Part shown: piece after piece, positions 319-35,711 of the stretch
Numbering within the stretch: the first letter of the stretch is position 1
Layout of the letters: every line of letters starts with the position of its first letter
From: Eledone cirrhosa
Taxonomy: Eukaryota
Assembly: GCA_964016885.1 (NCBI GenBank)
Contig: OZ024766.1
Span: forward strand, 8,742,001 to 8,806,000
Direction of reading: 5' to 3'
Length of the DNA: 64,000 nt
Program-made: the position numbers and the translations under genes
Notes under the pieces: generated by a model
Told to the model about the DNA's origin: nothing
The model's input: only the letters and a program-made list of their open reading frames with translations
The model's database searches: none

Positions 319-320
<2 letters not shown>

Positions 321-486
321 AACAAGTAAGACCCCGACGGCTGAGCTCAAGCCGTTTCGACGGCTAATTCGAAACGGCTTGAGCTCAGCCGTCGAGGTCT
401 TACTTGTTCCTATTACCCACTCTACTACCCTAAGTATTGAGTACTTTGGTACGGTCCACTTGGTTCCTTACCACATTTCCTTCGTT
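319..486 (+). mobile_element. Family A fold-back element, non-autonomous Penelope-like (other copies 1807-1950, 6594-6807, 38321-38515, 43851-43968, 47098-47244, 49464-49599, 50765-50946)
   Basis: Shared body tcGAAACGGCttgagctc(a/t)GCCGTC ggggtc...taagtattgagtact...ggttccttaccaca with an inverted 5' arm; usually bounded by (TA)n. Confidence 0.75.
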
Positions 487-651
487 ATATATATATATAT
501 ATATATATATATTTGGATTTAATGCTCTGAAATAGCGATATATATGTGAAGACAAACATAGAATATTCGAAAATATTCTGTATGTTTATAATAAACATTT
601 TGAAGACCCAATCGCTATAGAATGGAGTACGTCACGTATTACAATTTGAGA

Positions 652-738
652 TTCTCGATAAAAGCAAGGGAAGTAACCTACGCGTTTCATTCTTATTAGA
701 AATCATCAGGATTACATATCCAATGCTTTTATCGAGAA
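652..738 (-). ncRNA. Inverted copy of the family B hammerhead
   Basis: Reverse complement of 903-989. Confidence 0.8.
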
Positions 739-902
739 CGACACAGCTAGAGACTTATTCGAATATTCTATGTTTGTCTTCACATATATATCGCTATTTC
801 AGAGCATTAAATCCAAATTCTAATTTCTGCCGGACCGGCTACCGCTCTTTCAAACCAGTTCCTGTACACAGCTAAGTATTCTATAAGTCTCTAGCTGTGT
901 CG

Positions 903-989
903 TTCTCGATAAAAGCATTGGATATGTAATCCTGATGATTTCTAATAAGAATGAAACGCGTAGGTTACTTCCCTTGCTTTTATCGAGAA
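903..989 (+). ncRNA. Minimal type I hammerhead ribozyme (family B)
   Basis: gtaatc CTGATGA t ttct-aata-agaa t GAAA C GC GT A ggttac. Palindromic stem III ACGCGT; extended stem I ttctcgataaaagca/tgcttttatcgagaa. Confidence 0.8.
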
Positions 990-1090
990 TCTCAAATTGT
1001 AATACGTGACGTATTCTATTCTATAGCGATTGGGTCTTCAAAATGTTTATTATAAACATACAGAATATTTTCGAATATTCTATGTTTGTC

Positions 1091-1125
<35 letters not shown>

Positions 1126-1349
1126 TATATATATATATATATATACGACCTCTATTATACCATAAACGTGGTTTTGTCTTCGCGTGTAATTGTTTTTCAC
1201 CGCTCCTATTAATGACGTATTATATTCGTTTTTTTTCCCGTTCTTTGCCAGGGAACGTTTCCACGAACCAAAGTATCGTCTTCCTGTCTTCCTCCGGCTG
1301 CAACGTTTTTTGAAATATTCACTTCTGCGTTTACAGATTGTCTTTGTTA

Positions 1350-3089: not shown

Positions 3090-6060
3090 TGGGGGGGGGG
3101 GGGTAGTATAGTTGACAGAAGATATCCCCGAGTGGGGGACTAGAGAGAGAGAGAGCGGGGTGTGATAATATACCTGACAGAAGATACCCCCGGAGGGGTG
3201 GACTAGAGAGAGAGAGCGGGGGGGGGATAGTATAGTTAACAGAAGATACCCCCGGGGGGTGGACTAGAGAGAGAGAGCGGGGGCGGGGTGGGTGATAGTA
3301 TAGTTAACAGAAGATACCCCCGGGGGTGGACTAGAGAGAGAGAGCGGGGGGGGGGGGTAGTATAGTTAACGGAAGATACCCCCGGGGGGTGGAGTAGAGA
3401 GAGAGAGCGGGGGGGATAGTATAGTTAACAGAAGATACCCCCGGGGGGTGGGCTAGAGAGAGAGAGCGGGGAGGGATAGTATAGTTAACAGAAGATACCC
3501 CCGGGGGGTGGGCTAGAGAGAGAGAGCGGGGGGGATAGTATAGTTAACAGAAGATACCCCCGGGGGGTGGACTAGAGAGAGAGAGCGGGGGGGATAGTAT
3601 AGTTAACAGAAGATACCCCCGGGGGGTTGGCTAGAGAGAGAGAGAGCGGGGGCGGGGTGGGTGATAGTATAGTTAACAGAAGATACCCCCGGGGGGGTGG
3701 ACTAGAGAGAGAGAGCGGGGTGGGTGATAGTATAGTTAACAGAAGATACCCCCGGGGGGTTGGCTAGAGAGAGAGAGAGCGGGGGCGGGGTGGGTGATAG
3801 TATAGTTAACAGAAGATACCCCGGGGGGTGGACTAGAGAGAGAGAGAGCGGGGGGGATAGTATAGTTAACAGAAGATACCCCCGGGGGATGGGCTAGAGA
3901 GAGAGAGCGGGGGGGTGATAGTATAGTTAACAGAAGATACCCCCGGGGGGTGGGCTAGAGAGAGAGAGTGGGGGGGAGATAGTATAGTTAACAGAAGATA
4001 CCCCCGGGGGGTGGGCTCGAGAGAGAGAGCGGGGGGGATAGTATAGTTAACAGAAGATACCCCGGGGGGTGGGCTAGAGAGAGAGCGGGGGGGGGGGATA
4101 GTATAGTTAACAGAAGATACCCCCGGGGGGTGGACTAGAGAGAGAGAGCGGGGGGGGGGTGATAGTATAGTTAACAGAAGATACCCCCGGGGGGTGGACT
4201 AGAGAGAGAGAGCGGGGGGGGATAGTATAGTTAACAGAAGATACCCCCGGGGGTGGGCTAGAGAGAGAGAGCGGGGTGGGTGATAGTATAGTTAACAGGA
4301 GATACCCCCGGGGAGTGGACTAGAGAGAGAGAGCGGGGGGATAGTATAGTTAACAGAAGATACCCCGGGGGTGGACTAGAGAGAGAGAGAGCGGGGGGGG
4401 ATAGTATAGTTAACAGAAGAAACCCCCGGGGGGTGGGCTAGAGAGAGAGAGCGGGGGGGATAGTATAGTTAACAGAAGATACCCCCGGGGGGGTGGACTA
4501 GAGAGAGAGAGCGGGGGGGATAGTATAGTTAACAGAAGATACCCCCGGGGGGTGGACTAGAGAGAGAGAGCGGGGGGGGGGGGATAGTATAGTTAACAGA
4601 AGATACCCCCGGGGGGTGGGCTAGAGAGAGAGAGCGGGGGGGGATAGTATAGTTAACAGAAGATACCCCCGGGGAGTGGACTAGAGAGAGAGAGCGGGGG
4701 GATAGTATAGTTAACAGAAGATACCCCCGGGGGTGGGCTAGAGAGAGAGAGCGGGGGGGATAGTATAGTTAACAGAAGATACCCCCGGGGGGTGGGCTAG
4801 AGAGAGAGAGCGGGGGGGATAGTATAGTTAACAGAAGATACCCCCGGGGGGTGGGCTAGAGAGAGAGAGCGGGGGGGATAGTATAGTTAACAGAAGATAC
4901 CCCCGGGGGGTGGACTAGAGAGAGAGAGCGGGGGGGTGATAGTATAGTTAACAGAAGATACCCCCGGGGGGTTGGCTAGAGAGAGAGAGAGCGGGGGCGG
5001 GGTGGGTGATAGTATAGTTAACAGAAGATACCCCCGGGGGTGGACTAGAGAGAGAGAGCGGGGTGGGTGATAGTATAGTTAACAGAAGATACCCCCGGGG
5101 GGTTGGCTAGAGAGAGAGAGCGGGGGCGGGGTGGGTGATAGTATAGTTAACAGAAGATACCCCCGGGGGTGGGCTAGAGAGAGAGAGCGGGGGGTGATAG
5201 TATAGTTAACAGAAGATACCCCCGGGGGGTGGGCTAGAGAGAGAGAGCGGGGGTGGGTGATAGTATAGTTAACAGAAGATACCCCCGGGGCGTGGGCTAG
5301 AGAGAGAGAGCGGGGGGGATAGTATAGTTAACAGAAGATACCCCCGGGAGAGGTGGACTAGAGAGAGAGAGCGGGGGGATAGTATAGTTAACAGAAGATA
5401 CCCCCGGGGGGGGGGGTTAGAGAGAGAGAGCGGGGGGGTGATAGTATAGTTAACAGAAGATACCCCCGGGGGTGGGCTAGAGAGAGAGTGGGGGGTGATA
5501 GTATAGTTAACAGAAGATACCCCCGGGGGGTGGGCTAGAGAGAGAGAGCGGGGGGGTGATAGTATAGTTAACAGAAGATACCCCCGGGGGGTGGGCTAGA
5601 GAGAGAGAGCGGGGGGGTGATAGTATAGTTAACAGAAGATACCCCCGGGGGTGGGCTAGAGAGAGAGTGGGGGGGTGATAGTATAGTTAACAGAAGATAC
5701 CCCCGGGGGGTGGGCTAGAGAGAGAGAGCGGGGGGGTGATAGTATAGTTAACAGAAGATACCCCCGGGGGGTGGGCTAGAGAGAGAGAGCGGGGGGGTGA
5801 TAGTATAGTTAACAGAAGATACCCCCGGGGGGTGGACTAGAGAGAGAGAGCGGGGGGGGGATAGTATAGTTAACAGAAGATACCCCCGGGGGGTGGGCTA
5901 GAGAGAGAGCGGGGGGGGTGATAGTATAGTTAACAGAAGATACCCCCGGGGGGTTAGAGAGAGAGAGCGGGGGTGATAATATAGCTGACAGAAGATACCC
6001 CGGGGGGGGTAGAGAGAGAGCGGGGGGGGGGGTGATAATATAGTTGACTGAAGATACCTC
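3090..6060. repeat. ~60-bp G-rich minisatellite, about 50 copies
   Basis: Unit gatagtatagttaacagaagatacccccggggggtgg(a/g)ctagagagagagagcgggggg. Confidence 0.95.
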
Positions 6061-6234
6061 GGGGGTGGAGTAGAGAGAGCAGGGGAGGGAGTGAGATAGA
6101 GAGACGGAGGGTAGAGTGACAATATGGTCGACAGAAAATACCCCCGGGGTGGGGTAGAGAGAGCAAGGGATGGAGAGAGAGGGAGAGAGAGAGAGAGAGA
6201 ATGCACGGGCTGTGACAGGATATCCTCTGAGGTG

Positions 6235-9638: not shown

Positions 9639-9702
9639 CTGAAAATAACAACAACAGCAGCAGTAACAACAACAATAGTAACAACAACAACAGGTAGACA
9701 AA

Positions 9703-10767
9703 CATTGTAGAGCTAGCCTAGGGTGTTAAATACCCAGGTACACATTGTAGAGCTAGTCTAGGGTGTTAAATACCCAGGTACATATTGTAGAGCTAGTGTA
9801 GTGTGTTAAATACCCAGGTACACATTGTAGAGCTAGTGTAGTGTGTTAAATACCCAGGTACATATTGTAGAGCTAACCAAGGGTGTTAAATACCCAGGTA
9901 TACATTGTAGAGGTAGCCTAGGATGTTAAATACCCAGGTATACATTGTAGAGCTAGTCTAGGGTGTTAAATACCCAGGTATACATTGTAGAGGTAGCCTA
10001 GGGTGTTAAATACCCAGTACACATTGTAGAGCTAGTCTAGGGTGTTAAATACCCAGGTATACATTGTAGAGGTAGCCTAGGGTGTTAAATACCCAGGTAT
10101 ACATTGTAGAGCTAGTCTAGGGTGTTAAATACCCAGGTACATATTGTAGAGCTAGCCTAGGGTGTTAAATACCCAGGTACACATTGTAGAGCTAACCTAG
10201 GGTGTTAAATACCCAGGTACACATTGTAGAGCTAGCCTAGGGTGTTAAATACCCAGGTACACATTGTAGAGCTAGTCTAGAGTGTTAGATACCCAGGTAC
10301 ACATTGTAGAGCTAGCCTAGGGTGTTAAATACCCAGGTACACATTGTAGAGCTCGTGTAGGGAGGTAAATATCCAGGTACACATTGTAGAGCTAGTCTAG
10401 AGTGTTAGATACCCAGGTACACCTTGTAGAGCTAGCTTAGGGTGTTAAATACCCAGGTACACATTGTAGAGCTAGTGTAGGGAGGTAAATACCCCAGTAC
10501 ACATTGTAGAGCTAGCCTAGGGTGTTAAATACCTTGGTACACATTGTAGAGCTAGTGTAGTGTGTAAATACCCAGGTACACATTGTAGAGCTAGCCTAGG
10601 GTGTTAAATACCCTGGTACACATTGTAGAGCTAGCCTAGGGTGTTAAATACCCAGGTACACATTGTAGAGCTAGTCTAGGGTGTTAAATATCCAGGTACA
10701 CATTGTAGAGCTAAACTAGGGTGTTAAATACCCAGGTACATATTGTAGAGCTAACCTAGGGAGCTAG
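9703..10767. repeat. 40-bp minisatellite in intron 4
   Basis: Unit cattgtagagctagcctagggtgttaaatacccaggtaca. Confidence 0.95.
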
Positions 10768-10812
10768 AAGAAGAAGAAAAACGATATATTTAAATATAAT
10801 ATACATACTTAC

Positions 10813-11000
10813 CGTCAGTCCATTGAACTTTGGTGGATAAATTCGAGTATAGGATGGTTGGATAAAATGAAGATTTCTCATACGAACACACAAATAATCT
10901 TTCACTAATAATTAACCAGCCGGCATCAGGCCAGCAATCACAGTCATGATTTCTTCTGCAGTGTTTATATCTATTGTTCACATAAAATCGACGGCTATTT
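10813..11000 (-). CDS. Coding exon 4 of the same gene
   Basis: ttcctatttacag acceptor, GTAAGT donor, 188 nt (phase 2 to 1). Encodes NSRRFYVNNRYKHCRRNHDCDCWPDAGWLIISERLFVCSYEKSSFYPTILYSNLSTKVQWTD. Confidence 0.9.
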
Positions 11001-11016
11001 CTGTAAATAGGAAAAT

Positions 11017-11540
11017 AATAGTTTCAGATTTAGGTACAAGGCCAACAATTTAGAAAGAAGGGGAAAGTCAATTAAATCAACCTCAGTGTATTACTGGTAC
11101 TTTATTTTATCGACCCCTGTCAGGATGAAAGGTAAAGCTATTACTAATAATTGTTTCTACTTTAGGCACAAGGCCAGCAATTACCCCAGTGTATTACTGG
11201 TACTTTATTTTATCGACCCCTGTCAGGATGAAAGGTAAAGCTATTACTAATAATTGTTTCTACTTTAGGCACAAGGCCAGCAATTACCCCAGTGTATTAC
11301 TGGTACTTTATTTTATCGACCCCTGTCAGGATGAAAGGTAAAGCTATTACTAATAATTGTTTCTACTTTAGGCACAAGGCCAGCAATTACCCCAGTACAT
11401 TACTGGTACTTTATTTTATCGACCCCGTAAGGATGAAAGGCAAAGTCAACCTCGGCGGGATTTGAACTCACGCCGTAAAGGGACGTAACTCTATGCTGGA
11501 AAGCATGGCGTCCGACCCTCTACCGATACTGTCAATCCAA
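11017..11540 (-). mobile_element. tRNA-derived SINE with a tandemly repeated 103-bp 3' segment
   Basis: ctattactaataattgtttctac recurs at 11138, 11241 and 11344; full head at about 11440-11540. Confidence 0.8.
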
Positions 11541-11569
11541 TAATGATTTCTACTATAGGCACAGCCTAC

Positions 11570-13077
11570 ATATTGTAGAGCTAGTCTAGGGTGTTAAATA
11601 CCCAGGTACATATTGTAGAGCTAGTCTAGGGTGTTAAATACCCAGGTACACATTGTAGAGCTAGCCTAGGGTGTTAAATACCCAGATACACATTTTAGAG
11701 CTAGCCTAGAGTGTTAAATACCCCAGTACATATTGTAGAGCTAGCCTAGGGTGTTAAATAACCAGGTACACATTTTAGAGCTAGCCTAGAGTGTTAAATA
11801 CCCAGGTACATATTGTAGAGCTAACCTAGGGTGTTAAACACCCCAGTACATATTGTAGAGCTAGCCTAGGGTGTTAAATACCCAGGTACATATTGTAGAG
11901 CTAGCCTAGGGTGTAAATACCCAGGTACATAATGTAGAGCTAGCCTAGGGTGCTGAATACCCCAGTACACATTGTAGAGCTAGCCTAGGGTGTTAAATAC
12001 CCAGGTACATATTGTAGAGCTAGCCTAGGGTGTTAAATACCCAGGTACACATTTTAGAGCTAGCCTAGGCTGTTAAATACCCAGGTACATATTGTAGAGC
12101 TAGTCTAGGGTGTTAAATACCCCAGTACATATTGTAGAACTAGCCTAGGGTGTTAAATACCCAGGTACACATTGTAGAGCTAGTCTAGGGTGTTAAATAC
12201 CCAGGTATACTTTGTAGAGCTAGCCTAAGGTGTTAAATACCCCAGTACACATTGTAGAGCTAGCCTAGGGTGTTAAATACCCAGGTACATATTGTAGAGC
12301 TAGCCTAGGGTGTTAAATACCCAGGTACACATTTTAGAGCTAGCCTAGGGTGTTAAATACCCAGGTACATATTGTAGAGCTAGTCTAGGGTGTTAAATAC
12401 CCCAGTACATATTGTAGAACTAGCCTAGGGTGTTAAATACCCAGGTACACATTGTAGAGCTAGCCTAGGGTGTTAAATACCCAGGTACATATTGTAGAGC
12501 TAGTCTAGGGTGTTAAATACCCCAGTACACATTGTAGAGCTAGCCTAGGGTGTTAAATACCCAGGTACACATTGTTGAGCTAGCCTAGGGTGTTAAATAC
12601 CCAGGTACACATTGTAGAGCTAGCCTGGGGTGTTAAATACCCAGATACACATTGTAGAGCTAGTCTAGGGTGTTAAATACCCAGGTATACATTGTAGAGC
12701 TAGCCTAGGGTGTTAAATACCCCAGTACACATTGTAGAGCTAGCCTAGGGTGTTAAATACCCAGTTACATATTGTAGAGCTAGCCTAGGGTGTTAAATAC
12801 CCAGGTACACATTGTAGAGCTAGCCTAGGGTGTTAAATACCCAGGTACACATTGTAGAGCTAGCCTGGGGTGTTAAATATCCAGGTACACATTGTAGAGC
12901 TAACCTAGGGTGTTAAATACCCAGGTACACATTGTTGAGCTAGCCTGGGGTGTTAAATACCCAGGTACACATTGTAGAGCTAGCCTAGGGTGTTAAATAC
13001 CCAGGTACACATTGTAGAGCTAGTCTAGAGTGCTAAATACGTAGGTACACATTGTAGAGCTAGCCTAGAGTAGCTAA
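11570..13077. repeat. Same 40-bp minisatellite in intron 3
   Basis: Same unit, about 37 copies. Confidence 0.95.
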
Positions 13078-15112: not shown

Positions 15113-18100
15113 AGGACAGTACAGGACAACACAGGACAATACAGGACAACACAGGACAGTACAGGACAATACAGGACAATACAGGACAACACAGGACAAC
15201 ACAGGACAACACAGGACAACACAGGACAGTACAGGACAATACAGGACAGTACAGGACAACACAGGACAATATAGGACAGTACAGGACAATACAGGACAGT
15301 ACAGGACAACACAGGACAGTACAGGACAACACAGGACAGTACAGGACAACACAGGACAGTACAGGACAACACAGGACAGTACAGGACAATACAGGACAGT
15401 ACAGGACAATATAGAACAGTACAGGACAGTACAGGACAATACAGGACAGTACAGGACAGTACAGGACAATACAGGACAGTACAGGACAATACAGGACAAT
15501 ACAGGACAACACAGGACAATACAGGATAATACAGGACAACACAGGACAGTACAGGACAGCACAGGACAATATAGGACAACACAGGACAATATAGGACAGT
15601 ACAGGACAGTACAGGACAATACAGGACAATACAGGACAACACAGGACAACACAGGACAATACAGGACAGCACAGGACAATACAGGACAATACATGACAAC
15701 ACAGGACAATACAGGACAGTACAGGACAATACAGGACAATACAGGACAGTACAGGACAATATAGGACAGTACAGGACAATACAGATCAGTACATGACAAT
15801 ACAGGACAACACAGGACAATACAGGACAATATAGGACAGTACAGGACAATACAGATCAATACATGACAATACAGGACAGTACAGGACAACACAGGACAAT
15901 ACAGGACAGTACAGGACCATACAGGACAGTACAGGACAATACAGGACAATACAGGACATTACAGGACAATACAGGACATTACAGGACAACACAGGACAGT
16001 ACATGACAATACAGGACAATACAGGACAACACAGGACAATACAGGACAATACAGGACAGTACAGGACAATACAGGACAGTACAGGACAACACAGGACAAT
16101 ACAGGACAGTACAGGACAATGCAGGACAGTACAGGACAACACAGGACAGTACAGGACAATACAGGACAACACAGGACAGTACAGGGCAATACAGGACAGT
16201 ACAGGACAATACAGGACAATACAGGACAATACAGGACAACAGGACAATACAGGACAACACAGGACAACACAGGACAATACAGGACAATACAGGACAACTC
16301 ATGACAATACAGGATAGTACAGGACAACACAGGACAGCACAGGACAGTACAGGACAATACAGGACAATATAGGACAGTACAGGACAGTACAGGACAATAC
16401 AGGACAACACAGGACAATACAGGACAACACACGACAGTACAGGACAACACAGGACAGTACATGACAGTACAGGACAACACAGGACAGTACATGACAGTAC
16501 AGGACAATACAGGACAACACAGGACAGTACAGGACAATACAGGACAACACAGGACAGTACAGGACAATACAGGACAACACAGGACAATACAGGTCAGTAC
16601 AGGACAACACAGGACAATATAGGACAATACAGGATAATACAGGTCAGTACATGACAATACAGAACAACACAGGACAGTACAGGACAATACAGGACAACAC
16701 AGGACAGTACATGACAGTACAGGACAACACAGGACAGTACAGGACAACACGGGACAGTACAGGACAGTACAGGACAGTACAGGACAACACAGGACAACAC
16801 AGGACAATACAGGACAGTACAGGACAATATAGGACAGTACAGGACAATACAGATCAGTACATGACAATACAGGACAATATAGGACAGTACAGGACAATAC
16901 AGATCAGTACATGACAATACAGGACAGTACAGGACAATACAGGACAGTACAGGACAGTACAGGACAATACAGGACATTACAGGACAACACAGGAGAGTAC
17001 ATGACAATACAGGACAATACAGGACAACACAGGACAGTACAGGACAGTACAGAACAGTACAGGACAATACAGGACAGTACAGGACAACACAGGACAATAC
17101 AGGACAGTACAGGACAACACAGGACAGTACAGGACAACACAGGACAGTACAGGACAATACAGGACAGTACAGGACAACACAGGACAATACAGGACAGTAC
17201 AGGACAACACAGGACAGTACAGGACAATACAGGACAGTACAGGACAATACAGGACAACTCAGGACAATACAGGACAGTACAGGACAATACAGGACAGTAC
17301 AGGACAATACAGGACAACTCATGACAATACAGGACAACACAGGACAATACAGGACAGTACAGGACAATACAGGACAATACAGGACAACACAGGACAACAC
17401 AGGACAGTACATGACAGTACAGGACAGTACAGGACAATACAGGACAATACAGGACAGTCCAGGACAATACAGGACAATATAGGACAGTACAGGACAATAC
17501 AGGTCAACACAGGACAATACAGGACAGTACAGGACAACACAGGACAGTACAGGACAATACAGGACAGTACAGGACAATACAGGACAACTCAGGACAATAC
17601 AGGACAGTACAGGACAATACAGGACAGTACAGGACAATACAGGACAACTCATGACAATACAGGAAAACACAGGACAATACAGGACAGTACAGGACAATAC
17701 AGGACAATACAGGACAACACAGGACAACACAGGACAGTACATGACAGTACATGACAGTACAGGACAATACAGGACAGTCCAGGACAATACAGGACAATAT
17801 AGGACAGTACAGGACAATACAGGACAACACAGGACAATACAGGACAGTACAGGACAACACAGGACAGTACATGACAGTACAGGACAACACAGGACAGTAC
17901 ATGTCAGTACAGGACAACACAGGACAATACATGACAGTACAGGACAATACAGGACAACACAGGACAGTACAGGACAGTACAGGACAATACAGGACAACAC
18001 AGGACAATACAGGTCAGTACATGACAATACAGAACAACACAGGACAGTACAGGACAATACAGGACAGTACATGACAGTACAGGACAATACAGGACAATAC

Positions 18101-21100
18101 AGGACAGTACAGGACAACACAGGACATTACAGGACAACACAGGACAGTACAGGACAATACAGGACAGTACAGGACAATACAGGACAACACAGGACAACAC
18201 AGGACAGTACAGGTCAGTACAGGACAGTACAAGACAGTACAGGACAACACAGGACATTACAGGACAGTACAGGACAGTAGAGGACAACACAGGACAACAC
18301 AGGACAATACAGGACAACACAGGACAGTACAGGACAACACAGGACAGTACAGGACAATACAGGACAACACAGGACAATACAGGTCAGTACATGACAATAC
18401 AGGACAACACAGGACAATATAGGACAGTACAGGACAATACAGGACAATATAGGACAGTACAGGACAATACAGGACAACACAGGACAGTACATGACAGTAC
18501 AGGACAATACAGGACAGTACAGGACAATACAGGACAATACAGGACAGTACAGGACAGTACAGGACAACACAGGACATTACAGGACAACACAGGACAGTAC
18601 AGGACAATACAGGATAGTACAGGACAATACAGGACAACACAGGACAATACAGGACAACACAGGACAGTACAGGACAACACAGGACAATACAGGAGAGTAC
18701 AGGACAACACAGGACAGTACAGGACAACACAGGACATTACAGGACAGTACAGGACAGTAGAGGACAACACAGGACAATACAGGACAGTACAGGACAATAT
18801 AGGAGAGTACATGACAATACAGGACAACACAGGACAATACAGGACAACACAGGACAGTACAGGACAATACAGGACAATACAGGACAATACAGGACAATAC
18901 AGGACAATATAGGACAGTACAGGACAACACAGGACAATACAGGACAGTACAGGACAATACAGGACAACACAGGACAATACAGGACAATACAGGACAACAC
19001 AGGACAGTACAGGACAACACAGGACAATACAGGACAGTACAGGACAATACAGGACAATACAGGACAATATAGGACAGTACAGGACAACACAGGACAATAC
19101 AGGACAATACAGGACAATACAGGACAACACAGGACAGTACAGGACAGTACAGGACAACACAGGACAATACAGGACAGTACAGGACAATACAGGACAATAC
19201 AGGACAGTACATGACAACACAGGACAATGCAGGACAATACAGGACAGTACATGACAACACAGGACAATACAGGACAGTACAGGACAACACAGGACAGTAC
19301 AGGACAATACAGGACAGTACATGACAACACAGGACAATGCAGGACAATACAGGACAGTACATGACAACACAGGACAATACAGGACAACACAGGACAGTAC
19401 AGGACAGTACATGACAACACAGGACAGTACAGGACAACACAGGACAACACAGGACAGTACAGGACAGTACATGACAACACAGGACAATACAGGACTGTAC
19501 AGGACAACACAGGACAACACAGGACAGTACATGACAGTACATGACAGTACATGACAACACAGGACAACACAGGACAGTACATGACAGTACATGACAGTAC
19601 ATGACAACACAGGACAACACAGGACAGTACATGACAGTACATGACAGTACATGACAACACAGGACAACACAGGACAATGCAGGACAGTGCAGGACAACAC
19701 AGGACAACACAGGACAATACAGGACATTACAGGACAATACAGGACAGTTCCGGACAATATAGGACAGTACAGGACAATACAGGACAATACAGGTCAGTAC
19801 ATGACAATACAGGACAATACAGGACAACACAGGACAATACAGGACAATACAGGACAACACAGGACAGTACAGGACAGTACAGGACAACACAGGACAATAC
19901 AGGACAGTACAGGACAATACAGGACAGTACAGGACAACACAGGACAATACAGGACAGTACAGGACAATACAGGACAGTACAGGACAATACAGGACAACAC
20001 AGGACAGTACAGGACAGTACAGGACAACACAGGACAGTACAGGATAACACAGGACAGTACAGGACAGTACATGACAACACAGGACAGTACAGGACAGTAC
20101 AGGACAGTACAGGACAATACAGGACAGTACAGGACAGTACAGGACAGTACAGGACAGTATATGACAACACAGGACAACACAGGACAACACAGGACAACAC
20201 AGGACAGTACAGGACAGTACAGGACAACACAGGACAACACAGGACAACACAGGACAGTACATGACAATACAGGACAGTACAGGACAGTACATGACAACAC
20301 AGGACAATATAGGACGATACAGGACAATACAGGACAATACATGACAATACAGGACAGTACAGGACAGTACATGACAATACAGGACAACACAGGACAACAC
20401 AGGACAACACAGGACAACACAGGACAGTACATGACAATACAGGACAATACAGGACAATACAGGACAACACAGGACAACACAGGACAACACAGGACAACAC
20501 AGGACAGTACATGACAATACAGGACAATACAGGACAATACAGGACAACACAGGACAATACAGGACGATACAGGACAATACAGGACAATACATGACAATAC
20601 AGGACAGTACAGGACAGTACATGACAATACAGGACAGTACATGACAATACAGGACAATACAGGACAATACAGGACAGTACATGACAATACAGGACAGTAA
20701 AGGACAATACAGGACAACACAGGACAGTACAGGACAACACAGGACAACACAGGACAGTACATGACAATACAGGACAATACAGGACAATACAGGACAATAC
20801 AGGACAATACAGGACAGTACAGGACAGTACAGGACAATACAGGACAACACAGGACAACACAGGACAGTACATGACAACACAGGACAATACAGGACAACAC
20901 AGGACAGTACATGACAACACAGGACAATGCAGGACAATACAGGACAATACAGGACAATACAGGACAGTACATGACAATACAGGACAACACAGGACAGTAC
21001 AGGACAACACAGGACAATGCAGGACAATACAGGACAATACAGGACAATACAGGACAGTACATGACAATACAGGACAACACAGGACAGTACATGACAACAC

Positions 21101-22865
21101 AGGACAATATAGGACAACACAGGACAGTACAGGACAGTACATGACAACACTGGACAGTACAGGACAGTACATGACAGTACATGACAACACAGGACAACAC
21201 AGGACAGTACAGGACAACACAGGACAGTACATGACAGTACAGGACAGTACAGGACAGTACATGACAACACAGGACAACACAGGACAGTACAGGACAACAC
21301 AGGACAGTACAGGACAGTACATGACAACACAGGACAGTACAGGACAGTACAGGACAGTACAGGACAACACAGGACAATACAGGACAGTACAGGACAACAC
21401 AGGACAACACAGGACAATACAGGACAGTACAGGACAATACAGGACAGTACAGGACAACACAGGACAACACAGGACAGTACAACACAGGACAACACAGGAC
21501 AATGCAGGACAGTGCAGGACAACACAGGACAATACAGGACATTACAGGACAATACAGGACAGTACAGGACAATATAGGACAGTACAGGACAATACAGGAC
21601 AATACAGGACAATACAGGACAGTACAGGACAATATAGGACAGTACAGGACAATACAGGACAATACAGGACAATACAGGTCAGTACAGGACAATATAGGAC
21701 AGTACAGGACAATACAGGACAGTACAGGACAATATAGGACAATACAGGTCAGTACAGGACAATATAGGACAGTACAGGACAATACAGGACAGTACAGGAC
21801 AGTACATGACAACACAGGACAGTACAGGACAGTACAGGACAGTACAGGACAACACAAGACAATACAGGACAGTACAGGACAACACAGGACAACACAGGAC
21901 AATACAGGACAGTACAGGACAATACAGGACAGTACAGGACAACACAGGACAATACAGGACAACACAGGACAGTACAACACAGGACAACACAGGTCAATGC
22001 AGGACAGTGCAGGACAATACAGGACATTACAGGACAATACAGGACAGTACAGGACAATATAGGACAGTACAGGACAATACAGGACAATACAGGACAATAC
22101 AGGACAGTACAGGACAATATAGGACAGTACAGGACAATACAGGACAATACAGGTCAGTACAGGACAATATAGGACAGTACAGGACAATACAGGACAATAC
22201 AGGACAGTACAGGACAATATAGGACAATACAGGTCAGTACAGGACAATATAGGACAGTACAGGACAATACAGGACAATACAGGACAATACAGGTCAGTAC
22301 AGGACAATATAGGACAGTACAGGACAATACAGGACAATACAGGACAATACAGGTCAGTACATGACAGTACAGGACAGTACATGACAACAAAGGACAGTAC
22401 ATGACAATACAGGACAGTACAGGACAATACAGGACAATACAGGACAATACAGGTCAGTACATGACAATACAGGACAACACAGGACAGTACATGACAGTAC
22501 AGGACAGTACAGGACAGTACATGACAACAAAGGACAGTACATGACAATACAGGACAGTACATGACAACAAAGGACAGTACATGACAATACAGGACAGTAC
22601 AGGACAATACAGGACAATACAGGACAATACAGGACAATACAGGACAATACAGGACAATACAGGTCAGTACAGGACAACACAGGACAACACAGGACAATAC
22701 AGGACAATACAGGACAATACAGGACAGTACATGACAACAAAGGACAGTACATGACAATACAGGACAGTTACAGGACAATACAGGACAATACAGGACAGTA
22801 CAGGACAGTACAGGACAGTACAGGACAACACAGGACAGTACATGACAATACAGGACAGTACAGGA
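15113..22865. repeat. 10-bp satellite ACAGGACA(AT/GT/AC), about 7.7 kb
   Basis: Continuous decamer array with three main variants. Confidence 0.97.
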
Positions 22866-30577: not shown

Positions 30578-32648
30578 GTTTAACGTCCGTGTTCCACGCT
30601 TGCATGGGTTTGGACGGGGGTTTTCCCACTTGAGGCAAGAGTGATTGTCTTGCTCGCATAGGACTGTCTGGCGGGTTTTCTACAGTTGGATGCCCTTCCT
30701 AACACCAACCACATTTACAGTGTGGGGCTGGGAGGTTTTTACCGTGTTGCCTACACGGCCACATTACAGCGTGGACTGTCTGGCGGGTTTTCTACAGCTG
30801 GATGCCCTTCCTAACACCAACCACATTTACAGTGTGGGGCTGGGAGGTTTTTACCGTGTTGCCTACACGGCCACATTACAGCGTGGACTGTCTGGCGGGT
30901 TTTCTACAGCTGGATGCCCTTCCTAACACCAACCACATTTACAGTGTGGGGCTGGGAGGTTTTTACCGTGTTGCCTACACGGCCACATTACAGCGTGGAC
31001 TGTCTGGCGGGTTTTCTACAGCTGGATGCCCTTCCTAACACCAACCACATTTACAGTGTGGGGCTGGGAGGTTTTTACCGTGTTGCCTACACGGCCACAT
31101 TACAGCGTGGACTGTCTGGCGGGTTTTCTACAGTTGGATGCCCTTCCTAACACCAACCACATTTACAGTGTGGGGCTGGGAGGTTTTTACCGTGTTGCCT
31201 ACACGGCCACATTACAGCGTGGACTGTCTGGCGGGTTTTCTACAGCTGGATGCCCTTCCTAACACCAACCACATTTACAGTGTGGGGCTGGGAGGTTTTT
31301 ACCGTGTTGCCTACACGGCCACATTACAGCGTGGACTGTCTGGCGGGTTTTCTACAGCTGGATGCCCTTCCTAACACCAACCACATTTACAGTGTGGGGC
31401 TGGGAGGTTTTTACCGTGTTGCCTACACGGCCACATTACAGCGTGGACTGTCTGGCGGGTTTTCTACAGCTGGATGCCCTTCCTAACACCAACCACATTT
31501 ACAGTGTGGGGCTGGGAGGTTTTTACCGTGTTGCCTACACGGCCACATTACAGCGTGGACTGTCTGGCGGGTTTTCTACAGCTGGATGCCCTTCCTAACA
31601 CCAACCACATTTACAGTGTGGGGCTGGGAGGTTTTTACCATGTTGCCTACACGGCCACATTACAGCGTGGACTGTCTGGCGGGTTTTCTACAGCTGGATG
31701 CCCTTCCTAACACCAACCACATTTACAGTGTGGGGCTGGGAGGTTTTTACCGTGTTGCCTACACGGCCACATTACAGCGTGGACTGTCTGGCGGGTTTTC
31801 TACAGCTGGATGCCCTTCCTAACACCAACCACATTTACAGTGTGGGGCTGGGAGGTTTTTACCATGTTGCCTACACGGCCACATTACAGCGTGGACTGTC
31901 TGGCGGGTTTTCTACAGCTGGATGCCCTTCCTAACACCAACCACATTTACAGTGTGGGGCTGGGAGGTTTTTACCGTGTTGCCTACACGGCCACATTACA
32001 GCGTGGACTGTCTGGCGGGTTTTCTACAGCTGGATGCCCTTCCTAACACCAACCACATTTACAGTGTGGGGCTGGGAGGTTTTTACCGTGTTGCCTACAC
32101 GGCCACATTACAGCGTGGACTGTCTGGCGGGTTTTCTACAGTTGGATGCCCTTCCTAACACCAACCACATTTACAGTGTGGGGCTGGGAGGTTTTTACCG
32201 TGTTGCCTACACGGCCACATTACAGCGTGGACTGTCTGGCGGGTTTTCTACAGCTGGATGCCCTTCCTAACACCAACCACATTTACAGTGTGGGGCTGGA
32301 AGGTTTTTACCGTGTTGCCTACACGGTCACATTACAGCGTGGACTGTGTGTTTTTTTTTTCGTGACACCTACACGATCTCATTTGTTTCGGCCTGGATTT
32401 TGTGGCACCAACATAACTTTACATTGAAAGGGGCGGTGTGGATGGGGTGGGGGTGGTGGGACGGGGGGTGTATTTTGTTAGAGATGCCTACTGACTGTAG
32501 TAGGTTTTACTTTGTATTTAGGTAAGGCGGGTCTTCTCTGTTACTGAGTACCGCCAAAGGTCTCGGTCCAGTGACATTGTCTTGGAGAGGTGTAAGTGTG
32601 TGAGGTCGGAATTTATCAGCTCGTCCCAGGTTTTTCTGGGTCTGCCTA
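30547..32648 (-). mobile_element. Nested RTE 3' end with a 7-bp target-site duplication
   Basis: ctccgat at 30540-30546 and 32649-32655; (GAT)n tail; encodes a RPRKTWDELI...DRDLWR remnant. Confidence 0.75.
30661..32346. repeat. 112-bp tandem array, about 15 near-identical copies
   Basis: ORF starts recur every 112 bp; the unit contains gatgcccttcctaacaccaacc. Confidence 0.97.
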
Positions 32649-33025
32649 CTCCGATGGATGTGTAATAGTATTATACGCGAACGGCAAAGTATGAACGAAT
32701 TGAGGGAGAGTCTGAGCATAAGAGGCATCAAATGCTGTGTGCAGGAGAGGAAATTGACCTGGTATGGACATGTGATGAGTATGAAGGATGACAGCTGCAT
32801 AAAAAGGTGCAGAGCACTAGAAGTCGATGGAAACCGCGGAGTGGGGAGACCCAAGAAGACCTGGGATGAGGTGATAAAAGCGGACCTTGCCCGATTGCAC
32901 CTCTCAAAGGAGATGACGCAGGACCGTGACCTCTGGCGTCACGCAGTAATACAGATGACCCAACTTCCCACGAGTACAAGCCGAAGCTGAAGCTTATAGA
33001 CAATATGTCACAACCCCCTCCCTCT

Positions 33026-35333
33026 GCAAAGTGGTCATGTAGGTGTCACAACAAAAAGCACCCAGTCCACACTGTAAAGTGGTCATGTAGGTGTCACAAC
33101 AAAAAGCACCCAGTCCACACTGTAAAGTGGTCATGTAGGTGTCACAACAAAAAACACCCAGTCCACACTGTAAAGTGGTCATGTAGGTGTCATGACAAAA
33201 AACACCCTGTCCACACTGTAAAGTGGTCATGTAGGTGTCATGCCAAAAAACACCCAGTCCACACTGTAAAGTGGTCATGTAGCTGTCATGACAAAAAACA
33301 CCCAGTCCACACTGTAAAGTGGTCATGTAGGTGTCACAACAAAAAGCACCCAGTCCACACTGTAAAGTGGTCATGTAGGTGTCAACAAAAAGCACCCATT
33401 CCACACTGTAAAGTGGTCATGTAGGTGTCACAACAAAAAGTACCCAGTCCACACTGTAAAGTGGTCATGTAGGTGTCATGACAAAAAGCACCCAGCCCAC
33501 ACTGTAAAGTGGTCATGTAGGTGTCATGACAAAAAGCACCCAGTCCACACTGTAAAGTGGTCATGTAGGTGTCACGACAAAAAGACACCCAGTCCACACT
33601 GTAAAGTGGTCATGTAGGTGTCACAACAAAAAGACACCCAGTCCACACTGTAAAGTGGTCATGTAGGTGTCACAACAAAAAGCACCCAGTCCACACTGTA
33701 AAGTGGTCATGTAGGTGTCATGGCAAAAAGCATCCAGTCTACACAGTAAAGTGGTCATGTAGCTGTCATGACAAAAAACACCCAGTCCACACTGTAAAGT
33801 GGTCATGTAGGTGTCACAACAAAAAGCACCCAGTCCACACTGTAAAGTGGTCATGTAGGTGTCATGACAAAAAGCACCCAGTCCACACTGTAAAGTGGTC
33901 ATGTAGGTGTCACAACAAAAAAACACCCAGTCCACACTGTAAAGTGGTCATGTAGGTGTCATAACAAAAGGACACCCAGTCCACACTGTAAAGTGGTCGT
34001 GTAGGTGTCATGACAAAAAGCACCCAGCCCACACTGTAAAGTGGTCATGTAGGTGTCACAACAAAAAGCACCCAGTCCACACTGTAAAGTGGTCATGTAG
34101 GTGTCATGACAAAAAGTACCCAGTCCACACTGTAAAGTGGTCATGTAGGTGTCACAACAAAAAGTACCCAGTCCACACTGTAAAGTGGTCATGTAGGTGT
34201 CATGGCAAAAAGCATCCAGTCTACACAGTAAAGTGGTCATGTAGCTGTCATGACAAAAAACACCCAGTCCACACTGTAAAGTGGTCATGTAGGTGTCACA
34301 ACAAAAAGCACCCAGTCCACACTGTAAAGTGGTCATGTAGGTGTCACGACAAAAAGCACCCAGTCCACACTGTAAAGTGGTCATGTAGGTGTCACAACAA
34401 AAAAACACCCAGTCCACACTGTAAAGTGGTCATGTAGGTGTCATAACAAAAGGACACCCAGTCCACACTGTAAAGTGGTCGTGTAGGTGTCATGACAAAA
34501 AGCACCCAGCCCACACTGTAAAGTGGTCATGTAGGTGTCACAACAAAAAGCACCCAGTCCACACTGTAAAGTGGTCATGTAGGTGTCATGACAAAAAGTA
34601 CCCAGTCCACACTGTAAAGTGGTCATGTAGGTGTCACAACAAAAAGTACCCAGTCCACACTGTAAAGTGGTCATGTAGGTGTCATGACAAAAAGCACCCA
34701 GCCCACACTGTAAAGTGGTCATGTAGGTGTCATGACAAAAAGCACCCAGTCCACACTGTAAAGTGGTCATGTAGGTGTCATGACAAAAAGCACCCAATCC
34801 ACACTGTAAAGTGGTCATGTAGGTGTCACGACAAAAAGCACCCAGTCCACACTGTAAAGTGGTCATGTAGGTGTCATGACAAAAAGCACCCAGCCCACAC
34901 TGTAAAGTGGTCATGTAGGTGTCATGACAAAAAGCACCCATTCCACACTGTAAAGTGGTAATGTAGGTGTCACAACAAAAAGACACCCAGTCCACACTGT
35001 AAAGTGGTAGTGTTGGTGTCACAACAAAAAGCACCCATTCCACACTGTAAAGTGGTCATGTATGTGTCATTGCAAAAAGCACCCAGTCTACACAGTAAAG
35101 TGGTCATGTAGGTGTCACAACAAAAAGACACCCAGTCCACACTATAAAGTGGTCATGTAGGTGTCACAACAAAAAGCACCCAGTCCACACTGTAAAGTGG
35201 TCATGTAGGTGTCACAACAAAAAGCACCCAGTCCACACTGTAAAGTGGTCATGTAGGTGTCACAACAAAAAGCACCCAGTCCACACTGTAAAGTGGTCAT
35301 GTAGGTGTCACGACAAAAAGCACCCAGTTCACA
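33026..35333. repeat. 48-bp tandem array, about 48 copies
   Basis: Unit cagtccacactgtaaagtggtcatgtaggtgtcacaacaaaaagcacc. Confidence 0.97.
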
Positions 35334-35711
35334 CAATTATTTATTATATATATTTATATATAGTATATATTATATTATTTATTATATACTAGCTGTCAGG
35401 GGATTTCAGAGATCCACATGGTGTGGACATGGATATTTTCAAGAAATAATTGTTTCTACTTTTGGCACAAGGCCAGCAATTATCCAGTGTATTACTGGTA
35501 CTTTATTTTATCGACCCCGTAAGGATGAAAGGCAAAGTTAACCTCGGCGGGATTTGAACTCAGAATGGCAAGGGCCGTAACTCTATGCGTCAAAGCATGA
35601 CGTCCGACCCTCTACCGATACTATCAATCCACCGCCCATATATATAATAAATAAGATAATATATACTATATATAAATATATATTATATATTTTTATTTTA
35701 CTATATATATA

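What the first reader, a model, noticed from the sequence alone, without database searches (positions are those of the whole stretch)
512..1094. 312-nt permuted hammerhead unit, a retrozyme-like or circular-RNA-like template
Seen: the plus-strand segment 758-1094 begins and ends with the same 25-mer (period 312) and holds one hammerhead. The minus-strand segment 512-757 reads through the unit junction, from 883-1094 into 783-818. Both arms therefore derive from a tandem or circular 312-nt template. Established: retrozymes are small non-autonomous elements of tandem hammerhead-bearing units that can give circular RNAs. Inference: a cephalopod retrozyme-like family, or a Penelope pseudo-LTR.
Basis: partly seen in the sequence, partly recalled or inferred. 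Interest (0 to 1): 0.7.

Follow-up and report, generated by a model that had tools for sequence, protein, structure and literature searches.

The report
Two-armed retrozyme with RNA-editing barcodes
This is one copy of a very abundant, protein-free jumping repeat with a predicted self-cutting RNA motif; several sister insertions repeat the same cluster of A-to-G changes in every unit of both arms, so each insertion was likely copied round and round from one edited RNA circle, probably by a Penelope-type enzyme.

Summary
Observation confirmed. Bases 511-1094 are a head-to-head, two-armed insertion in (TA)n of a 312-nt unit with a type I hammerhead. The family has at least 16,385 units, in tandem arrays of up to about 22 units per arm. 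No copy examined is joined to a coding element. It is a non-LTR retrozyme with a Penelope footprint: in 66 of 71 two-armed loci one arm ends at site A and the other 36 nt further on (site B); none has two A or two B ends. Four arrays carry 4-11 A-to-G changes that are identical in every unit (both arms in the three two-armed ones) and found nowhere else in the assembly by exact pattern. The mirror T-to-C control gave only single units. This points to one ADAR-edited sense RNA monomer, most likely a circle, read repeatedly from both ends of a DNA break. Not shown: cleavage, circles, expression, the partner enzyme. Unit number can also change at DNA level. This copy has one hammerhead per arm and is probably progeny, not a source. 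Retrozymes and their Penelope link are published, and this scan found the family before on other DNA; the whole-array editing evidence was not found in the papers searched.

The parts
486..512 (.). (TA)n target tract, left flank
511..758 (-). Left arm: 0.79 unit, 5'-truncated at unit position 126, 3' end at site B (tailed end)
511..546 (-). 36-nt extension between sites A and B (Penelope-type 'tail'), equal to 783-818
   Evidence: tail as described in PMC8557442 and PMC11167929
659..724 (-). Second, inverted type I hammerhead; predicted cut at the mirror of 962 (window 679)
758..758 (.). Head-to-head junction of the two 5'-truncated arms, 1-nt overlap
   Evidence: L031
758..1094 (+). Right arm: 1.08 unit, 3' end at site A (untailed end)
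758..1069 (+). One full 312-nt unit, 35% G+C, folds better than shuffles (z -4.8)
903..989 (+). Long stem that encloses the hammerhead; in sister arrays its A run (unit 154-156) carries whole-array A-to-G changes
926..968 (+). Type I hammerhead: core 932-938 and 953-956, one-pair stem III with palindromic loop (956-961), predicted cut after 962
   Evidence: sequence; architecture as in PMC4209133 and PMC7229834
1052..1089 (+). Predicted hairpin with UUCG loop just upstream of site A; candidate start signal for reverse transcription, also visible in diverged relatives
1094..1145 (.). (TA)n target tract, right flank

Best explanation
The element is a short copy of a young non-coding retrozyme family inserted as two opposed arms in (TA)n, and it was likely made when a Penelope-type reverse transcriptase-endonuclease copied one probably circular, sense-strand RNA monomer from both ends of a DNA break. 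Steps: (1) multi-unit arrays are transcribed and paired hammerheads cut out 310-312-nt monomers that are ligated into circles (inferred from known retrozymes; untested here); (2) some monomers are A-to-I edited (inferred from whole-array A-to-G clusters, which are shown); (3) the enzyme, probably a dimer, cuts both strands of a (TA)n tract and primes one cDNA at site A and the other at site B, 36 nt downstream (the A+B pairing is shown; the enzyme is inferred); (4) each cDNA runs round the same monomer, through the cut site, for a fraction of a turn to about 20 turns (identical marks in every pass are shown; circularity is inferred); (5) the two independently truncated cDNAs are joined head to head by end joining (junctions shown; pathway inferred). 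This copy is a short product, 0.79 plus 1.08 turns.
For: Family size: 16,385 exact hits to a 30-nt hammerhead pattern, 601 to the 33-mer of this subfamily. Layout: 71 of 90 loci two-armed, head to head; 66 of 71 A+B, 0 A+A, 0 B+B, 5 with one odd end; two more A+B among 5 further loci. Arm lengths show no A/B bias and little correlation (Wilcoxon p 0.64, rho 0.22). Of 35 central junctions, 20 overlap by 0-7 nt, 6 have 2-13 extra nt, 8 overlap by 10-36 nt at palindromes, 1 is unreadable. 5' ends are scattered, with no pile-up at the cut site, and 180 of 180 matched passes over the cut site have no insertion or deletion. One template per insertion: arms of a locus share 15 marker variants and differ at 2, against 1.8 and 28 in shuffled pairs, 0 of 2000 shuffles reaching 15 (sites chosen as locus-wide, so partly circular). 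Editing barcodes: L184 differs from a natural 310-nt unit at 11 sites, all A-to-G, in every pass of both arms; L222 at 7 sites, all A-to-G, in 12 of 12 and 3-4 of 3-4 passes; L283 and L284 at 4 each. Without the site searched for and the common A190G, 19 of 19 changes are A-to-G, against 25 of 305 among sporadic differences. The L184 core pattern occurs 5 times in the genome, all at that locus; the L222 triple only at its locus; no other array among the 68 A21G hits shares the L283 or L284 set. First and last passes of the L184 and L222 plus arms carry the same rare marks. Strand control: A156G gives 34 hits, 31 in four whole arrays; its mirror T222C gives 6, all single units. Stem I variants G207A, T173C, A171G, A172G keep pairing. 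The genome has RT plus GIY-YIG elements, and one head-to-head coding copy (L113) shows the same one-tailed asymmetry. A purified Penelope-like protein cuts and extends both strands of AT-rich DNA from two adjacent internal start sites (PMC11167929).
Against: No RNA evidence for cleavage, circles or expression. No autonomous partner: none of 50 fetched GIY-YIG loci (of 150 listed, 10,595 candidates) has ends homologous to the unit. Unit number does change at DNA level: L068 and L177 are one insertion in a duplicated segment with 4.05 and 3.05 units in the plus arm, and a roughly 300-kb higher-order satellite of these units lies on C14. Some arrays are mosaic (L057 T83C in 19 of 23 passes, L063, L065). 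Many whole-array variants are not A-to-G (T179A, T182A, C189T, T22C, T106A). The ADAR signature is incomplete: 5'-G depletion 1 of 20 against 15 of 92, p 0.18, and changed adenosines are no more paired in the predicted circle than others, 0.58 against 0.61. A search for A298G+A299G found 0 hits. Uniqueness holds for one assembly and exact patterns; a source allele could be missing. The minimum-energy fold of the monomer blocks part of the core, and 8 of 9 frog retrozymes did not cleave in vitro (10.64898/2026.07.22.740005).
Confidence: 0.75

Rival explanations
1. Penelope-type enzyme, but a linear multimeric transcript is the template; arrays are long because the source array was long or because units were later multiplied at DNA level.
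For: Published Penelope templates are uncut multimers, and hammerhead cleavage is not needed in vitro (PMC11167929). DNA-level change of unit number is seen (L068/L177; C14 satellite). Mosaic arrays exist.
Against: Editing of a linear multimer should differ from unit to unit, and unequal exchange keeps the first and last pass of an arm, which come from different RNA units; yet in L184 and L222 first and last passes carry the same rare marks (A292G has 17 hits genome-wide). No source array with those marks is in the assembly. L184 has no other difference in 5.3 passes.
Confidence: 0.1
2. The template is a single hammerhead-cut linear monomer, and the reverse transcriptase jumps from its 5' end back to its own 3' end again and again; no covalent circle exists.
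For: Explains identical marks in all passes equally well. No RNA data show a circle.
Against: 180 of 180 matched passes over the cut site are exact, and 5' truncations do not cluster there; jumps would be expected to leave both (inference). Retrozymes of coral, mussel and axolotl accumulate mainly as circles (PMC7229834).
Confidence: 0.1
3. The element is the truncated end (pseudo-LTR) of an autonomous Penelope-like retrotransposon, with no life cycle of its own.
For: Same footprint as Penelope-like insertions (PMC8557442); such coding elements abound here.
Against: In 95 loci the sequence past site B runs into the next unit or into (TA)n, never into a reading frame. Diverged relatives are also closed, permuted units. 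The one candidate long-period array holds no Penelope-like coding sequence in the 9 stretches fetched.
Confidence: 0.04
4. The inversion is LINE-type twin priming or a DNA fold-back, with no second fixed start site.
For: A few central junctions are palindromic (L037, L052).
Against: Twin priming links the outer end of the inverted arm to the 5' end of the other arm, and a fold-back gives the same outer end twice (recalled mechanisms). Here the outer ends are two fixed sites in 66 of 71 loci and the 5' ends vary freely. No poly(A) tail.
Confidence: 0.01

Closest known systems
Metazoan non-LTR retrozymes (Cervera and de la Pena 2020, PMC7229834: passages and sections 14 and 17 read, supplements not read; Li, Clavereau and Pollet 2026, bioRxiv 10.64898/2026.07.22.740005: parts 1-3 of 5 read, supplements not seen)
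   Same: Tandem non-coding units of about 300 nt, low G+C, one type I hammerhead per unit with a weak palindromic stem III; proposed mobilisation by Penelope-like elements through circular RNA.
   Different: In the parts read, those papers describe head-to-tail arrays and propose, but do not show, tandem cDNA from a circle; the 2026 preprint favours local DNA amplification of a Penelope terminus. Here insertions are two-armed with paired A/B ends, and whole arrays carry one RNA's editing marks. RNA editing is only named as a possible cause of circle heterogeneity.
Endonuclease-bearing Penelope-like elements (Craig et al. 2021, PMC8557442, passages; Arkhipova et al. 2013, PMC3846280, passages; Cervera and de la Pena 2014, PMC4209133, passages)
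   Same: 5' truncation, tandem copies, inverted 5'-truncated copy head to head, 30-40-nt tail often at one end only, (TA)n targets, type I hammerhead predicted to work as a dimer.
   Different: No reading frame; the unit is closed on itself; many passes per arm; the tail is at exactly one end in 66 of 66 classifiable two-armed loci. PMC3846280 suggests self-priming on an antisense template for head-to-head layouts; the strand bias of the marks here favours a sense template.
Poseidon element of Anolis in vitro (Frangieh et al. 2024, PMC11167929, parts 1-2 of 4 read)
   Same: Cuts and extends both strands of AT-rich DNA; two adjacent internal start sites in a stem-loop define the tail; predicted dimer.
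   Different: Linear template, no pairing of start sites between strands reported, no rolling round a circle.
Plant LTR retrozymes (search listing and remarks only)
   Same: Non-autonomous, hammerhead-bearing, circular RNA intermediate.
   Different: Type III hammerheads in LTRs, 4-bp target duplications, Gypsy partners; none of these seen here.

Membership tests
Metazoan non-LTR retrozyme | Type I hammerhead with intact core in each unit | tested here: met
   Core read from sequence; 16,385 exact hits to its 3' half; pairing-preserving variants. Rfam hit is below gathering score.
Metazoan non-LTR retrozyme | Tandem units of 150-450 nt, G+C under 50% | tested here: met
   Periods 312 and 310; 108 of 312 bases G or C.
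Metazoan non-LTR retrozyme | No coding capacity | tested here: met
   No complex reading frame of 180 aa or more over the window element; the few frames that touch an array end run in from flanking DNA; arrays consist of the unit only.
Metazoan non-LTR retrozyme | At least two consecutive hammerhead units (the 2026 preprint's criterion for an active copy) | tested here: met
   Met by many sister loci; not met by this window's copy, which has one hammerhead per arm.
Metazoan non-LTR retrozyme | Self-cleavage of the transcript | not testable with these tools
   Needs an in vitro assay.
Metazoan non-LTR retrozyme | Accumulation as circular RNA in tissues | not testable with these tools
   No RNA holder listed; only indirect genomic evidence for a monomer template.
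Metazoan non-LTR retrozyme | Absence of primer-binding site and polypurine tract | not tested
   No search made; no LTR layout seen in any locus.
Autonomous Penelope-like element | Reading frame with reverse transcriptase and GIY-YIG endonuclease | tested here: not met
   None joined to the unit in 95 loci; no unit homology in the ends of 50 GIY-YIG loci.
Penelope-type insertion footprint (works like) | Inverted 5'-truncated copy, head to head | tested here: met
   71 of 90 loci.
Penelope-type insertion footprint (works like) | 30-40-nt tail at one end | tested here: met
   36 nt; 66 of 71 A+B, none A+A or B+B.
Penelope-type insertion footprint (works like) | Microsatellite, (TA)n target bias | tested here: met
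   Canonical ends nearly all run into TA-rich tracts in the printed flanks; not counted against a background.
Penelope-type insertion footprint (works like) | Target-site duplication | tested here: inconclusive
   Both flanks are (TA)n, so a duplication cannot be read.
Plant LTR retrozyme | Type III hammerheads in long terminal repeats | tested here: not met
   Hammerhead is type I; no LTR layout.

The most novel reading that the evidence does not exclude
This genome keeps a molecular record of circular RNA being retrotransposed: one ADAR-edited circle is read round and round by two coupled Penelope reverse transcriptases that start 36 nt apart from the two ends of one break, so host RNA editing is written into the germ line as whole-array mutations, at times destroying the ribozyme (L184). 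Thousands of young arrays would then be natural rolling-circle sequencing reads of single RNA molecules, giving the enzyme's processivity, error rate and the editing state of germ-line circles.
Probability: 0.6. Interest if true: 0.82.

Novelty: new member of a known kind. Interest (0 to 1): 0.64.

Why it matters
How animal retrozymes get back into the genome, and why Penelope-like elements insert as tandem and inverted structures with a one-sided tail, are stated as open in the papers read (PMC7229834 Discussion; PMC8557442; 10.64898/2026.07.22.740005). This family makes both testable from sequence alone: it has thousands of near-identical young insertions, two fixed start sites that always pair, and array-private editing marks that trace an insertion to one RNA molecule. 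If right, it shows circular RNA serving as a retrotransposition template in an animal, favours a sense template over the proposed antisense one, and shows RNA editing acting as a heritable mutator of a mobile element. The single copy in this window is ordinary within the family.

Tried and rejected
RNA data: no RNA holder listed. Five runs of unknown kind hold the unit; contigs of X4 and X5 go back 312 nt, which fits a circle or tandem DNA equally. The L184 marks were not seen in contigs of X1-X4; the individuals are unknown and contigs drop rare variants, so this is no evidence either way. Rfam at gathering threshold: nothing. DNA search with the 310-nt unit: nothing, since very common words are skipped. 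Partner: 50 of 150 listed GIY-YIG loci fetched; unit-like hits beside them (L071, L109, L114) are separate insertions set off by TA tracts; the 20 hits spaced 5-9 kb on C14 proved to be a satellite, with no reading frames and no hit to six Penelope-like proteins in 9 fetched stretches. ADAR neighbour and pairing tests were not significant. A298G+A299G: 0 hits. The classifier mislabelled L047 and L058 and was replaced by that. Left out of counts: alignments under 84-90% identity in the end tally and under 95%; 12-16 nt at each arm end in variant counts; L135 and L136 are cut by the fetched stretch and fall under 'single'; L068 and L177 are one insertion (65 of 70 if counted once); one extra plus arm at L062 lies 170 nt of TA away and was not counted as tail to tail. 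Literature searches without a matching report. Subscription journals and the supplements of PMC7229834 and of the preprint were not seen and could hold related data. Sequence look-up in earlier scan notes gave one irrelevant hit; a look-up for whole-array hyper-editing gave none.

Full report
Observation. Unit positions count from window 758 = 1. The 25-mer at 758-782 recurs exactly at 1070-1094, and the reverse complement of 511-758 matches a dimer of 758-1069 at 246 of 248 bases across the unit junction. The two arms point away from each other, share base 758 and end in (TA)n on both sides. Each arm holds a type I hammerhead: six-pair stem I, CUGAUGA, a four-pair stem II above a U.U pair, GAAA, and a one-pair stem III closed by a palindromic loop, with the predicted cut after 962 (sequence). 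This weak palindromic stem III is the form described as needing two hammerheads to pair (PMC4209133, passages; PMC7229834). Rfam gives only a sub-threshold hammerhead-clan hit on both arms.

The family. A DNA search of the window's own 3.0-Gb genome gave 235 matches in arrays of period 312 (39 of 483 candidates scored). Exact patterns give 601 hits for this subfamily and 16,385 for the family, most of the listed ones in a 310-nt subfamily. I examined 90 loci in three sets: the 39 best-scoring, 31 taken from variant searches or in order along C1, and 20 of the 310-nt type, 5 chosen for A-to-G marks and 15 in order along C1; 5 more came later. None runs into a coding sequence. Relatives at 61-75% identity are also closed, permuted units with the same core, hairpin and ends.

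Insertion anatomy. 71 of 90 loci are two-armed and head to head. The 3' ends fall at two sites: A (about unit 25, just past a predicted UUCG hairpin) and B (about unit 61). 66 of the 71 have one A and one B end, none has two alike, and 5 have one odd end; independent ends would give this about once in 10^20 (0.5^66, arithmetic). Arm lengths run from 0.1 to 22 units with no A/B bias. The 5' ends are scattered and join through 0-7 shared bases (20 of 35), a few extra bases (6), or palindromes (8); one is unreadable. An inverted truncated copy, a 30-40-nt tail at one end and (TA)n targets are the published footprint of Penelope-like elements (PMC8557442, passages), and a purified one extends both strands from two adjacent internal start sites that define the tail (PMC11167929). 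The genome has many RT plus GIY-YIG elements, and a head-to-head coding copy, L113, shows the same asymmetry with a tail of about 48 nt. The partner of this family was not found among 50 fetched loci.

One RNA molecule per insertion. Units within a locus share variants across both arms: 15 shared and 2 discordant in 33 two-armed loci, against 1.8 and 28 after shuffling (partly circular). The decisive cases are arrays with clustered A-to-G changes. L184 differs from a natural 310-nt unit at 11 sites, all A-to-G, eight of them in 13 bases that include the hammerhead's GAAA, identically in every pass of both arms and with no other difference; that core pattern occurs five times in the genome, all there. 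L222 has 7 such changes in 12 of 12 passes of one arm and all passes of the other. L283 (both arms) and L284 (one arm) have 4 each, shared with no other A21G array. Leaving out the site searched for and the common A190G, 19 of 19 changes are A-to-G, against 25 of 305 sporadic differences. The mirror site on the other strand of the same stem gives six hits, all single units, against 31 of 34 hits in whole arrays for A156G. Clustered A-to-G on one strand is the mark of ADAR editing (own knowledge; PMC5625713 and PMC9989829 seen as search listings only). Edits on a linear multimer should differ between units, and unequal exchange keeps the first and last pass, so identical rare marks in both require one monomer read repeatedly. 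180 of 180 matched passes over the cut site are exact, which favours a covalent circle over template jumps. This is inference from DNA; no RNA was available.

Against. DNA-level change is real: L068 and L177 are one insertion with 4.05 and 3.05 units, and C14 holds a satellite of about 300 kb built from these units. Some arrays are mosaic, many whole-array variants are not A-to-G, neighbour and pairing tests for ADAR were not significant, and one double-edit search was empty. Uniqueness rests on one assembly and exact patterns. Cleavage is untested, and most frog retrozymes tested did not cleave.

Comparison and verdict. The element meets the genomic definition of a metazoan non-LTR retrozyme and works like a Penelope insertion; it is not an autonomous Penelope element. 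The link between the two is proposed in PMC7229834 and argued by phylogeny in 10.64898/2026.07.22.740005. I found no paper reporting paired start sites or whole-array editing marks in retrozyme insertions; subscription papers and supplements were not seen. Earlier notes of this scan, read after my analysis, describe this 310-nt family and other families with the same two-armed layout, one with editing scars; they agree but are not independent support. Verdict: a new member of a known kind whose copies give unusually direct evidence on an open mechanism. Confidence 0.75 in the full model; interest 0.64.

Noticed in passing
window 319-485 and 1807-1950: A different, older non-coding element between TA tracts: a head-to-head hairpin whose right arm runs about 75 nt further than the left, i.e. 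the same short-end/long-end layout. The finding's element sits in its 3' TA tract. Its end resembles the hammerhead-bearing family in L109 and L114.
   Followed up: partly
G000:C14:25.02-25.33 Mb (L271-L279): Higher-order satellite of about 300 kb, period 5-9 kb, 27-59% made of rearranged retrozyme units, all on one strand in the output seen (part was cut), no coding sequence: a retrozyme turned into satellite DNA.
   Followed up: partly
L054:5525-5779, L071:2438-2864, L233:4154-4532, L036:2740-2987, L161:1140-1326, L049:5881-6302: Older relatives at 61-75% identity keep the core, the hairpin and the A/B ends; several have GTAAGT about 110 nt upstream of TTTCAG, which looks like a spliceosomal intron.
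   Followed up: partly
L186 (G000:C1:315.29 Mb): A205G, the base at the predicted cut site, in 5 of 6 passes across both arms.
   Followed up: no
L057:1712-8677: 22-unit arm with T83C in 19 of 23 passes and repeated two-allele changes at units 72, 113 and 277; also G169T in 2-3 passes of L063 and L065. May be misreading of a damaged or modified base on repeated passes, template switching, or DNA-level mixing.
   Followed up: no
L113:3295-5490; L105:1850-4865: Head-to-head RT/GIY-YIG coding copies; L113 has a hammerhead variant in its 3' end and one long and one short end about 48 nt apart.
   Followed up: partly
L110:8061 and 8572: Two identical hammerheads 511 nt apart: another tandem hammerhead family.
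   Followed up: no
window 3095-6079, 9702-13068, 15113-22865, 30661-32347, 33024-35334: Large minisatellites with periods 61, 40, 10/20, 112 and 48.
   Followed up: no
window 624 and 627: The only two differences between the arms are both T-to-C on the sense strand, three bases apart, in the left arm.
   Followed up: no
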